A DNA stretch of 64,000 nt from Candidatus Micrarchaeota archaeon (GCA_040754495.1 JBFMCO010000022.1:18233-82232); one strand, 5' to 3'. Shown: positions 1,617-22,471, numbered from the stretch's first letter. A program made the numbers and translations. Notes: generated by a model not told the origin, from the letters alone.

Positions 1617-1946
1617 ATGGCGAAGGAAAAAATCGACTGGTCACAGCCCCCCAACCCGTCACTGCCGTTTATCAGCCCGGAGAACATAGGCGAGGTCGAG
1701 AAGGAGGCGCTGGCGATGGCCAACAAGGCTATTTCTCTCCTTGAGCAGGCGATAGCAGCCTGGGACAACGCTAAGGACAAGCCGCCTGAGCTGAAAGGGA
1801 CGATTCAGAGGTACAGGCGGTTCCACGAGGCGCTGAGCGACTGGGAGAAAAGGATGCTGCAGTCCCTGGGGAAGGCGGATTTCAATGCCCGGGTGAGGAT
1901 GCTCGAGGAGTTCGTGAGGATAAGCAGGGCATACGAGGGTAACTGA
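1617..1946 (+). CDS. Small hypothetical protein (109 aa) translationally coupled to the giant ORF
   Basis: Its stop TGA overlaps the ATG of the giant ORF by 1 nt (..AACTGATGG..). Same strand, no gap. Confidence 0.5.
   Translation: MAKEKIDWSQPPNPSLPFISPENIGEVEKEALAMANKAISLLEQAIAAWDNAKDKPPELKGTIQRYRRFHEALSDWEKRMLQSLGKADFNARVRMLEEFVRISRAYEGN

Positions 1947-22471: not shown

What the first reader, a model, noticed from the sequence alone, without database searches (positions are those of the whole stretch)
1946..22471. Uninterrupted 6,841-aa ORF encoding a giant multi-kinase protein
A 20.5-kb ORF takes up a third of the window. Its layout has no described archaeal counterpart that I know of. 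It has about 1,900 aa of Ala/Glu/Lys/Arg-rich helical repeats, an internal hydrophobic helix cluster, three PI3K/PI4K-like modules, one RIO/Bud32-like module, a Pro/Gly linker and a C-terminal HExxH segment. Proteins of this size in archaea are usually adhesins. This one is kinase-rich and lacks a signal peptide. That points to an intracellular scaffold or an effector delivered into a partner cell, for example a symbiont-host interaction factor.
Basis: partly seen in the sequence, partly recalled or inferred. Interest (0 to 1): 0.95.

Follow-up and report, generated by a model that had tools for sequence, protein, structure and literature searches.

The report
Giant multi-kinase protein of Micrarchaeota
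A 6,841-residue, cysteine-free protein of a tiny symbiotic (DPANN) archaeon carries three PI3K-like kinase domains, each matched by a small partner gene next door; it probably acts as a multi-headed effector or toxin, and I found no description of the family.

Summary
The 20.5-kb ORF (1946-22471, +) is real: it has no stops, a uniform coding signal and collinear relatives. The organism is a Micrarchaeota (DPANN) archaeon.

The 'RIO-like' block is a protein-kinase-like domain (E 1.5e-4) that lacks the catalytic-loop Asn. The HExxH segment is a conserved domain, possibly a zincin.

New here: the giant sits in a conserved three-gene system. A coupled upstream gene encodes a 77-109-aa protein. Convergent ~180-aa partner genes match the kinase-module subtypes in subtype and number (window 2+1 vs 2+1). 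The one locus without a partner has a dead kinase. All giants are nearly cysteine-free (0 here, ~85 expected).

Best reading (about 0.45): a modular multi-kinase effector/toxin with cognate neutralising proteins. Rivals: an intracellular PIKK-like scaffold, or a defence/toxin-antitoxin system. No description found; high interest.

The parts
1617..1946 (+). Upstream 109-aa small protein. Its TGA stop overlaps the giant's ATG (TGATG). It belongs to a conserved 77-109-aa family found directly upstream of giant relatives.
   Evidence: Searches show the overlap. Homologues abut or overlap the giant's start in L007, L008, L010 and L011, with pairwise E from 1e-9 to 1e-30. Conserved motif: A[IL]A.WE..KP. 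No significant Pfam or PDB relative.
1946..22471 (+). Giant ORF: 6,841 aa, 0 Cys.
2693..4045 (+). Conserved N-terminal domain (aa ~250-700), found at the same position in five giant relatives.
   Evidence: E 1e-33 to 1e-49 against P0014, P0001, P0011, P0002, P0003.
8318..8815 (+). Hydrophobic, Gly/Ala-rich helix cluster (aa ~2125-2290). The strongest segment is aa 2133-2151.
   Evidence: L002's giant has a similar cluster at aa 2368-2400.
10382..11215 (+). 'Mid' module (aa 2813-3090) of unknown function, 60% identical to modules in P0014 and P0005.
   Evidence: No PDB sequence relative.
11933..13435 (+). Kinase module 1, type I (aa 3330-3830; core 3437-3725). Motifs: FVK, DRFDRN, IDMD.
13433..13660 (+). 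Pro/Gly/Ala-rich linker (aa ~3830-3905).
13964..14551 (+). Gly-loop, VAVK, alpha-C-like Glu, GDF and DxG are conserved. There is no catalytic-loop Asn.
   Evidence: StkP E 1.5e-4.
15329..17374 (+). Kinase module 2, type II (aa 4462-5143; core 4592-4879). Motifs: FVK, DRHAGN, IDTD. It is the most conserved part of the protein (50% identity to P0001 and P0011).
18416..19945 (+). Kinase module 3, type I (aa 5491-6000; core 5611-5893). Motifs: FVK, DRHTGN, IDPD. This is the copy that was modelled.
20360..21643 (+). HExxH domain (aa 6139-6566). HExQHxxD is invariant, with an invariant Glu about 32 residues downstream. Putative zincin-type metallopeptidase.
   Evidence: Pfam hits are weak only: DUF6782 at E 2.5e-4 and Peptidase_M78 at E 0.017, each in 1 of 8 members. 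No PDB sequence relative.
21683..22213 (+). C-terminal domain (aa 6580-6756) that also occurs as stand-alone 130-190-aa proteins. Motifs: KP.G[LV]WLSW..GW and YGWD.
   Evidence: No PDB sequence relative.
22490..23032 (-). Partner protein S1 (180 aa), alpha subtype, convergent with the giant.
23029..23577 (-). Partner protein S2 (182 aa), beta subtype.
24133..24663 (-). Partner protein S4 (176 aa), alpha subtype.

Best explanation
The ORF is a genuine gene of a Micrarchaeota (DPANN) archaeon. It is a member of a family of giant, almost cysteine-free, modular proteins for which I found no description.

Anatomy: after a ~2,000-aa Ala/Glu/Lys/Arg-rich region (presumably helical) and a short hydrophobic cluster, the protein strings together shuffled enzyme-like modules. 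These are three PI3K/PI4K/PIKK-like kinase domains (two of subtype I, one of subtype II) with intact Lys, DRxxxN and DxD catalytic residues; one atypical protein-kinase-like domain; a putative HExxH peptidase; and at least three modules of unknown fold.

The gene belongs to a conserved three-component system: (1) a small protein encoded immediately upstream, with overlapping stop and start codons; (2) the giant; (3) convergently transcribed ~180-aa partner proteins in two subtypes, whose subtype and copy number match the kinase-module subtypes.

Proposed mechanism: the giant is a multi-effector 'polyvalent' toxin or effector. Its kinase modules phosphorylate targets in another cell, either the host of the episymbiont or a competitor. 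Each partner protein binds and neutralises its cognate kinase module inside the producer. The upstream protein serves as a chaperone or adaptor. The N-terminal region with the hydrophobic helices anchors or translocates the protein.

Shown: gene integrity, family, fold, conservation of catalytic residues, synteny, subtype and number matching, cysteine depletion, and the fact that every relative that carries a taxon label is from Micrarchaeota.

Inferred: kinase activity, partner binding, export and the target.

The anatomical core (a real giant multi-kinase gene with cognate accessory genes) I hold at about 0.9. The effector-plus-immunity mechanism I hold at about 0.45.
For: Gene is real.

Taxon: PolD DP2 is 60-83% identical to proteins of Micrarchaeota/Bilamarchaeaceae. 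Every relative that carries a name is a 'hypothetical protein' of Ca. Micrarchaeota or Micrarchaeia.

Family: 51 hits among 1.84e9 representatives, 19 with E < 1e-30, mostly 3,000-7,300 aa. Giant ORFs in L001 and L002.

Catalytic residues over 58 copies: Lys 48/55, Asp 55/56, Asn 53/56, Asp 56/56 and Asp 54/56.

Module shuffling between relatives.

Partner genes: tail-to-tail next to module-bearing genes of 653 to 6,841 aa. Counts of type I modules / alpha partners and type II modules / beta partners: window 2/2 and 1/1; L001 1/1 and 2/2; L004 1/1; L006 1/1; L010 2/2; L011 1/1; L005 1/0 and 1/1 (contig ends at the giant's start); L008 1/0. The L008 module is catalytically dead (D to Y, N to A).

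Upstream protein: conserved in 5 of 5 visible 5' flanks.

Cysteine: 0 observed against ~85 expected (P about 1e-37). Giant relatives have 0-0.3% Cys.

Background: kinase toxin domains are known in polymorphic toxin systems (PMC3482391).
Against: There is no signal peptide and no recognised secretion or trafficking domain in the giant. No secretion-system gene was found among the window ORFs scanned.

The partner genes are convergent, not co-directional and downstream as in classical toxin-immunity pairs.

The matching rests on 8 loci. Two counts do not match: L005, where the flank is cut, and L008.

Partner binding is not shown. The same counts would arise if the partners were substrates, activators or assembly factors.

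Cysteine depletion has other possible causes.

Only copy 3 was modelled. Similarity to PI3K is at fold level (10-14% identity, rmsd 4-5 A, Foldseek TM 0.2-0.33).
Confidence: 0.45

Rival explanations
1. Intracellular signalling mega-kinase or scaffold, analogous to eukaryotic PIKKs (a huge helical N-terminus followed by a PI3K-like kinase). The protein stays in the Micrarchaeota cell. The small partner proteins are its substrates, activators or regulatory subunits, and the upstream protein is an assembly factor.
For: No signal peptide. mTOR, SMG1, Tel1/ATM and DNA-PKcs are among the best structural matches. There is a long Ala/Glu/Lys/Arg-rich region N-terminal to the kinases. One relative (P0024) carries a calcineurin-like phosphoesterase, and a homologue of the HExxH domain is fused to FHA phosphopeptide-binding domains in P0046. 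Both fit phospho-signalling. Matched partner numbers fit dedicated substrates or regulators equally well.
Against: Module order and copy number are shuffled between close relatives, and several paralogues occur per genome. That is typical of conflict systems rather than core signalling. The near-total cysteine loss over thousands of residues has no obvious reason for a cytoplasmic regulator. The family is rare (51 of 1.84e9 representatives; 1 hit in 241 million metagenome records) and so is not a housekeeping function. The dead kinase module coincides with loss of the partner.
Confidence: 0.28
2. Self-directed toxin-antitoxin or abortive-infection (antiviral defence) system. The kinase modules are toxins held in check by cognate small antitoxins, as in HipA/HipB or HipBST. 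They are released on infection or stress and shut down the producer itself.
Against: Nothing in toxin-antitoxin or defence logic needs a 6,841-aa carrier with a conserved N-terminal domain, a hydrophobic cluster and several different enzyme modules. The PADLOC match is below any safe threshold and lies outside the PI3K-like modules. The partners show no supported DNA-binding domain: the HTH hint (E 0.38) was not confirmed. The genes are convergent, not an operon.
Confidence: 0.15
3. Surface adhesin or structural filament, the usual role of giant archaeal proteins, with the kinase-like domains degenerate and non-catalytic.
For: Giant DPANN proteins described so far are surface proteins (PMC10266531). 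Cysteine-poor composition is common in extracellular proteins (general knowledge). There is a weak PHROG tape-measure hit at aa 240-361 (E 0.0025).
Against: There is no signal peptide, no Ig-like, beta-propeller or other adhesion domain, and no C-terminal anchor. Catalytic residues are conserved at 87-100% over 58 copies, which argues for active enzymes.
Confidence: 0.07
4. Artefact: an assembly chimera, or a chance ORF in GC-rich DNA.
For: Read coverage could not be checked. The source genome is absent from the collections searched.
Against: The chance of such an open frame is about 1e-98. The codon-position signal is uniform. Independent assemblies carry collinear giants of 5,000-7,300 aa.
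Confidence: 0.02

Closest known systems
PI3K / PI4K / PIKK kinase domains (Pfam PI3_PI4_kinase, PF00454; e.g. PI3K-alpha, Vps34, PI4KIII-beta, mTOR, SMG1, Tel1/ATM)
   Different: Sequence profiles give no match, either to Pfam PF00454 or by profile against PDB sequences. Identity is 10-14%. 'DFG' is replaced by I-D-x-D, and the His of DRH is variable. There are several kinase domains per polypeptide, all internal rather than C-terminal. The labelled family members are all archaeal (Micrarchaeota).
HipA/HipB and HipBST kinase toxin-antitoxin systems
   Same: A protein-kinase-like fold related to PI3/4-kinases acts as the toxin and is neutralised by a small cognate protein encoded next to it. 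This is the logic I propose for module and partner.
Multi-effector and polymorphic toxins (MARTX toxins, polyvalent proteins, polymorphic toxin systems; Zhang et al. 2012, PMC3482391)
   Same: A giant carrier holds an array of shuffled enzymatic modules. Small cognate neutralising proteins are encoded adjacent to it. Paralogues vary between and within genomes. Kinase toxin domains are known, though rare.
   Different: No known trafficking domain, repeat type (RHS, RTX, filamentous haemagglutinin) or releasing peptidase was recognised. The candidate immunity genes are on the opposite strand. Several internal modules each have their own partner. The context is archaeal.
SPEARE-type giant surface proteins of Nanohaloarchaeota (PMC10266531; Hamm et al. 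2019 as cited there)
   Same: Giant (5,000-9,400 aa), lineage-specific proteins of DPANN episymbionts, thought to mediate host interaction.
   Different: According to PMC10266531, SPEARE proteins have a Sec signal peptide, Ig-like and beta-propeller domains, TM helices and a VirB4-like ATPase. None of these was found here. Kinase modules and cognate partner genes are not described there.
Archaeovorins, giant multi-enzyme proteins of predatory Omnitrophota (bioRxiv 10.1101/2023.11.21.568195)
   Same: Very large proteins that combine many different enzyme domains and are implicated in attacking another cell.
   Different: They are bacterial and much larger (>30,000 aa). They are dominated by Pfam-recognisable glycosyl hydrolase, transferase and peptidase domains. 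No PI3K-like kinases or partner genes are reported.
Legionella phosphoinositide-kinase effectors (e.g. MavQ)
   Different: The structural match is weaker than to eukaryotic PI3K/PI4K. They are single-domain T4SS substrates with eukaryotic hosts.

Membership tests
PI3K/PI4K/PIKK kinase superfamily | Bilobal protein-kinase-like fold that is closer to PI3K/PI4K/PIKK than to other kinase groups | tested here: met
PI3K/PI4K/PIKK kinase superfamily | Catalytic loop DRHxxN | tested here: met
   DRHAGN (copy 2) and DRHTGN (copy 3). Copy 1 has DRFDRN. Family-wide: Asp 55/56, Arg 48/56, Asn 53/56, His only 20/56.
PI3K/PI4K/PIKK kinase superfamily | DFG metal-binding motif | tested here: not met
   Replaced by I-D-x-D (IDMD, IDTD, IDPD). 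Both Asp residues are conserved, 56/56 and 54/56. The motif is functionally equivalent in position but differs in sequence.
PI3K/PI4K/PIKK kinase superfamily | Significant match to the family's sequence profile (Pfam PF00454) | tested here: not met
   No Pfam hit for the whole protein or for tiles, even at E up to 1. Profiles of 3 and 9 copies found no kinase among PDB sequences.
PI3K/PI4K/PIKK kinase superfamily | ATP-dependent phosphorylation of a lipid or protein | not testable with these tools
   Needs biochemistry.
RIO / Bud32 atypical kinases (for the block at aa 4007-4202) | Match to RIO1/Bud32 profiles that is better than to other kinases | tested here: not met
   No Pfam RIO1 hit. In the profile search against PDB sequences, StkP scores E 1.5e-4 and FGFR 2e-3, while Rio1 scores only 0.02.
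RIO / Bud32 atypical kinases (for the block at aa 4007-4202) | Catalytic loop with Asp and Asn (HxDLSEYN-type) | tested here: not met
   G-D-F-[DQ]-[FY]-x-[IV]-[LV]-T in three homologues. There is no Asn.
Protein-kinase-like superfamily (for the block at aa 4007-4202) | Gly-rich loop, beta-3 VAVK Lys, alpha-C Glu and DxG | tested here: met
   Invariant G40, V59-A60-V61-K62, E83 and D178-x-G180 in alignment A9. Significant N-lobe alignment to StkP. Weak PD-T4-6 hit. No structure model was made.
Zincin (HExxH) metallopeptidases (for aa 6139-6566) | Invariant HExxH plus a third zinc ligand downstream | tested here: inconclusive
   H264, E265, Q267, H268 and D271 are invariant, and so is E300 (32 residues later), in 8 domains. 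Which residue, if any, is the third ligand cannot be told without a structure.
Zincin (HExxH) metallopeptidases (for aa 6139-6566) | Significant match to a peptidase family profile or fold | tested here: not met
   Only DUF6782 (E 2.5e-4) and Peptidase_M78 (E 0.017), each in 1 of 8 members and below the Pfam cut-offs. No PDB sequence relative.
Polymorphic toxin / immunity systems | Toxin-domain type co-varies with the type of the adjacent small immunity gene | tested here: met
   Type I modules go with alpha partners and type II with beta. Counts match in 14 of 16 locus-by-type comparisons. A dead module lacks a partner. Binding itself was not tested.
Polymorphic toxin / immunity systems | Recognised N-terminal trafficking domain or secretion-system association | tested here: not met
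   No Pfam, NCBIfam or PHROG domain in the giant. No secretion genes among the window ORFs scanned.
Polymorphic toxin / immunity systems | Immunity gene immediately downstream on the same strand | tested here: not met
   The partners are adjacent but convergent in the window, L001, L004, L005, L006, L010 and L011. One L010 partner lies upstream.
SPEARE-type DPANN giant proteins | Sec signal peptide, Ig-like or beta-propeller ectodomains, VirB4-like ATPase | tested here: not met
   None detected. Features as described in PMC10266531.

The most novel reading that the evidence does not exclude
Micrarchaeota possess a previously unrecognised inter-cellular effector system. A giant cysteine-free carrier delivers several PI3K/PI4K-like kinases (plus a peptidase and unknown enzymes) into the host archaeon, where they phosphorylate host membrane inositol lipids or proteins. 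Each kinase head is kept silent in the symbiont by its own cognate inhibitor protein. This would be the first kinase-based host-manipulation machinery in archaea. It would also be a prokaryotic lineage of PI3K/PIKK-like kinases that is independent of eukaryotes.
Probability: 0.25. Interest if true: 0.92.

Novelty: new variant of a known kind. Interest (0 to 1): 0.82.

Why it matters
How DPANN episymbionts control or exploit their hosts is an open question, and very few molecular candidates exist. This family gives a concrete, testable candidate.

It is conserved in Micrarchaeota. If the genome is ~1 Mb, as is typical of Micrarchaeota (general knowledge, not checked here), each copy costs about 2% of it. 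The family carries catalytically intact kinases and comes with subtype-matched partner genes, so it lends itself to simple toxicity-and-rescue, binding and phosphorylation experiments.

It also shows that PI3K/PI4K/PIKK-like kinase domains, usually treated as a eukaryotic hallmark, exist as a divergent archaeal family that all the profile libraries tried here miss. In addition, 6,841 residues of conserved protein are entirely 'dark' to Pfam, NCBIfam and PHROGs.

Tried and rejected
Profile libraries: Pfam, PHROGs, NCBIfam and PADLOC on the whole protein and on tiles gave no significant hit.

K-mer-prefiltered search of 5.8e9 protein clusters: the full protein was too long, a 5,000-aa query timed out, and two sub-queries returned nothing. 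The prefilter misses this family, which the exhaustive search then found.

Profiles of 3 and 9 module copies against PDB sequences found nothing.

AlphaFold with a 3-row alignment gave pLDDT 44 and was unusable. The AFDB fold library was not available.

Phage tape-measure idea (helical region, hydrophobic segment, PHROG E 0.0025): rejected. The context is chromosomal housekeeping genes, no phage genes were seen, and the family has kinase modules.

Integrated mobile element (tRNA-Gly lies just upstream): no integrase was found and GC is the same as the surroundings. Not pursued further.

HTH in the partner proteins (NtrC-type Fis HTH, E 0.38): not supported by Pfam on 11 members.

The neighbouring HExxH-bearing ORFs (577-1545; 27209-28393) are not homologous to the giant's HExxH domain.

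The two other small ORFs in the partner array (23610-24107; 24704-25228) are not detectably partner homologues.

Look-up of the source contig by an exact neighbouring protein: not on record.

Full report
1. The observation

The window contains an ORF at 1946..22471 on the + strand: ATG start, 6,841 codons, no internal stop. At the window's base composition a stop is expected every ~31 codons, so the chance of such an open frame is about 1e-98. Codon-position GC (0.65/0.46/0.79) equals that of the neighbouring genes. The order pos3 > pos1 > pos2 holds in each of 13 consecutive 1.5-kb blocks, so nothing suggests a frameshift fusion.

- Ala/Glu/Lys/Arg-rich first ~1,900 aa;
- a hydrophobic segment at aa 2133-2151 with Gly/Ala-rich neighbours;
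- three related blocks with FVK...DRxxxN...IDxD;
- a GRGSSADVY...VAVKIYK block;
- a Pro/Gly linker at aa ~3830-3905;
- HEMQH at aa 6402.

The protein contains no cysteine. The neighbours have 1.24% Cys, which predicts ~85 (Poisson P about 1e-37).

2. Organism and context

The window is chromosomal archaeal DNA. It carries PolD large subunit DP2 with an intein, CysRS, an AlaX-type editing protein, a formyltransferase, a GT2 glycosyltransferase, GMP synthase and a tRNA-Gly. The PolD DP2 is 60-83% identical to proteins of Candidatus Micrarchaeota, Micrarchaeia and Bilamarchaeaceae MAGs. The organism is therefore a member of the DPANN phylum Micrarchaeota. The source genome itself is not in the collections I could search.

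3. A dark protein that nevertheless has a family

Pfam, PHROGs, NCBIfam and PADLOC give no significant hit, on halves, quarters or 300-670-aa tiles. Two k-mer-prefiltered searches of 5.8e9 clusters found nothing.

A scan of species-representative genomes with the module alignment found two loci in DPANN MAGs, both giant ORFs. A metagenome scan found one more.

The exhaustive HMMER search with aa 5491-6690 against 1.84e9 representatives found 51 proteins, 19 of them with E < 1e-30. Most are 3,000-7,300 aa. All that carry a name are 'hypothetical protein' of Micrarchaeota or Micrarchaeia. One MAG holds at least two paralogues. The giant relatives contain 0-0.3% Cys.

Mapping the relatives onto the window protein shows a mosaic:
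- an N-terminal domain (aa ~250-700) is conserved in position;
- a 'mid' module (2813-3090), the kinase modules, the ePK-like block, the HExxH domain (one or two copies in nine relatives) and a C-terminal domain recur in different orders and numbers;
- the C-terminal domain also exists as stand-alone 130-190-aa proteins;
- the long N-terminal Ala/Glu/Lys/Arg-rich region and the linkers are lineage-specific.

The closest relative (P0001) is collinear except for a transposed ePK-like block. That argues against a chimeric assembly.

4. The repeated module is a PI3K/PI4K/PIKK-like kinase

With only the three window copies as alignment, AlphaFold gave pLDDT 44. With 22 rows (window copies plus shorter relatives) it gave pLDDT 89.1 and pTM 0.90 for aa 5561-6003.

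In the model the invariant Lys ends the third strand of the N-lobe. D-R-x-x-x-N follows a long helix. D-x-D follows two short strands.

Over 58 non-redundant copies, conservation is Lys 48/55, catalytic Asp 55/56, Asn 53/56 and the two later Asp 56/56 and 54/56. The His of 'DRH' is variable.

I conclude that these are kinase domains, most are probably active, and they are closest in fold to the PI3K/PI4K/PIKK group. They are not members of the Pfam family by sequence: there is no profile match, and 'DFG' is replaced by IDxD. Whether the substrate is lipid or protein cannot be told.

5. Other modules

The 'RIO-like' block (aa 4007-4202) has two homologues. A three-sequence profile hits protein kinases significantly: StkP at E 1.5e-4, then FGFR, MARK1, Rio1 (0.02) and PknE. 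The Gly-loop, VAVK, an alpha-C-like Glu, GDF and DxG are invariant, but the catalytic-loop Asn is absent. It is a protein-kinase-like domain, not specifically RIO/Bud32, and may be atypical or inactive.

The HExxH domain (aa 6139-6566) keeps HExQHxxD and a Glu 32 residues later in eight copies. Only weak, sporadic Pfam metallopeptidase hits support a peptidase assignment.

The mid module and the C-terminal domain have no detectable relatives among solved structures.

6. A conserved three-gene system

Upstream gene. The 109-aa ORF 1617-1946 ends in a TGA that overlaps the giant's ATG. Homologous 77-103-aa genes abut or overlap the start of the giant gene in all four other loci where the 5' flank is visible (pairwise E 1e-9 to 1e-30).

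Partner genes. Downstream and convergent, the window encodes three paralogous ~180-aa proteins at 22490-23032, 23029-23577 and 24133-24663. Homologues lie tail-to-tail next to module-bearing genes in L001, L004, L005, L006, L010 and L011, whether those genes encode 653 or 6,140 aa.

Subtypes. By all-against-all BLAST the kinase modules fall into type I (window copies 1 and 3) and type II (copy 2). The partners fall into alpha (S1, S4) and beta (S2). Counts per locus:

Locus | type I / alpha | type II / beta
window | 2/2 | 1/1
L001 | 1/1 | 2/2
L004 | 1/1 | 0/0
L006 | 1/1 | 0/0
L010 | 2/2 | 0/0
L011 | 1/1 | 0/0
L005 | 1/0 | 1/1
L008 | 1/0 | 0/0

In L005 the contig ends at the giant's start, and in L010 one partner sits upstream, so the missing alpha partner of L005 may simply be off the contig. 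The single module of the L008 giant has lost the catalytic Asp and Asn.

Each kinase subtype therefore appears to have its own small partner at matched stoichiometry, and the partner seems dispensable when the kinase is dead. The sample is small (8 loci), and physical binding is untested. Neither accessory family has a relative in Pfam or among PDB sequences.

7. Mechanism

The combination is what is seen in inter-cellular conflict systems, namely multi-effector and polymorphic toxins with immunity proteins:
- shuffled enzymatic modules on a giant carrier;
- several paralogues per genome;
- restriction of all labelled members to an obligate episymbiont lineage;
- near-total loss of cysteine;
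- type-matched small neighbours.

I therefore favour (about 0.45) a multi-kinase effector or toxin whose heads are neutralised in the producer by cognate partners. In this model the upstream protein acts as chaperone or adaptor, and the N-terminal region with the hydrophobic helices acts in anchoring or translocation.

Against this: there is no signal peptide, no known trafficking domain and no secretion genes nearby, and the partners are convergent rather than operonic.

The main rival (about 0.28) is an intracellular PIKK-like signalling scaffold with dedicated substrates or regulators. It is supported by the structural matches to mTOR, SMG1 and ATM, and by FHA and phosphoesterase domains in relatives. 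A self-directed toxin-antitoxin or defence system (about 0.15), an adhesin (about 0.07) and an artefact (about 0.02) are less likely.

8. Comparison with the known, and novelty

Described DPANN giants (SPEARE-type) are Sec-exported adhesin and VirB4-like proteins (PMC10266531). Surveys of huge proteins do not mention archaeal kinase-rich giants. Papers on cultivated Micrarchaeota do not mention the family. Kinase toxin domains are known but rare in polymorphic toxin systems (PMC3482391).

The parts (a protein-kinase-like fold, toxin-immunity logic, giant symbiont proteins) are known kinds. The combination appears undescribed: a Micrarchaeota family of cysteine-free giants with several PI3K-like kinases, each with a cognate partner gene, plus a coupled upstream protein. 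I rate it a new variant of a known kind, with high interest.

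Noticed in passing
window 1946-22471; relatives P0001-P0037: The giant has no cysteine (0 of 6,841 aa, against ~85 expected from the neighbours' 1.24%). The giant relatives have 0-0.3% Cys, while the small stand-alone homologues of the C-terminal domain have normal or high Cys (1.1-3.4%).
   Followed up: partly
window 23610-24107 (-) and 24704-25228 (-): Two further ~165-175-aa ORFs are interleaved in the partner-gene array. They have good coding signal but no detectable similarity to the partner family or to anything in Pfam. 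They could be partners for other modules of the giant (ePK-like, HExxH).
   Followed up: partly
window 31778-36658 (-): The PolD large subunit DP2 is interrupted by an intein with a LAGLIDADG homing-endonuclease domain. The local GC dip (0.51 at 32001-34000, against ~0.62 elsewhere) falls inside this gene; whether it coincides with the intein insert was not mapped.
   Followed up: no
window 461-540 (+) and 42984-43041 (-): ARAGORN calls a tRNA-Gly(CCC) just upstream of the giant-gene locus. Rfam calls a second, truncated-looking tRNA at 42984-43041 (30 bits, just above threshold) that ARAGORN does not report.
   Followed up: no
window 577-1545 (+) and 27209-28393 (-): Two unannotated ORFs near the giant each carry an HExxH motif (HETLH, HEVAH). 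They are not homologous to the giant's HExxH domain or to each other.
   Followed up: yes
window 25014-26207 (+): An ORF with an FGE-sulfatase (formylglycine-generating-enzyme-like) domain (E 2e-9). Its 5' part overlaps the small ORF 24704-25228 on the opposite strand, so one of the two starts is probably wrong.
   Followed up: no
L005 and L001 (assembly GCA_040758235.1, contigs JBFLVW010000080 and JBFLVW010000027): One Micrarchaeota MAG encodes at least two giant paralogues (P0009 of 4,987 aa and P0011 of 6,140 aa) with different module sets.
   Followed up: partly
relatives P0024 (aa 3309-3388) and P0046 (aa 109-309): One giant relative carries a calcineurin-like phosphoesterase domain. A 746-aa protein fuses two FHA (phosphopeptide-binding) domains to a homologue of the giant's HExxH domain. 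Both hint at phospho-signalling around this family.
   Followed up: no
N-termini: window giant aa 20-30; L002 giant; P0004, P0010, P0029: The N-termini are Pro/Gln-rich, and five members share a loose [GV]PM[IV]P motif within the first ~60 residues. This could be a targeting signal of unknown type.
   Followed up: partly
P0020, P0028, P0030, P0032, P0034 (780-860 aa): A subfamily of short single-module proteins (N-terminus MALLD[IL]E...) has Ser, Asn or His in place of the beta-3 Lys but keeps D, N and D-x-D. L006 (P0020) still has an alpha partner gene.
   Followed up: no
method: The 5-residue-word prefilter of the large protein search returned nothing for this family, even at 50% identity to members that are in the collection. 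The exhaustive HMMER scan found 51.
   Followed up: yes
window 61750-63243 (-): A 497-aa protein with no cysteine, an N-terminal hydrophobic segment and no Pfam hit. It may be an envelope or surface protein.
   Followed up: no
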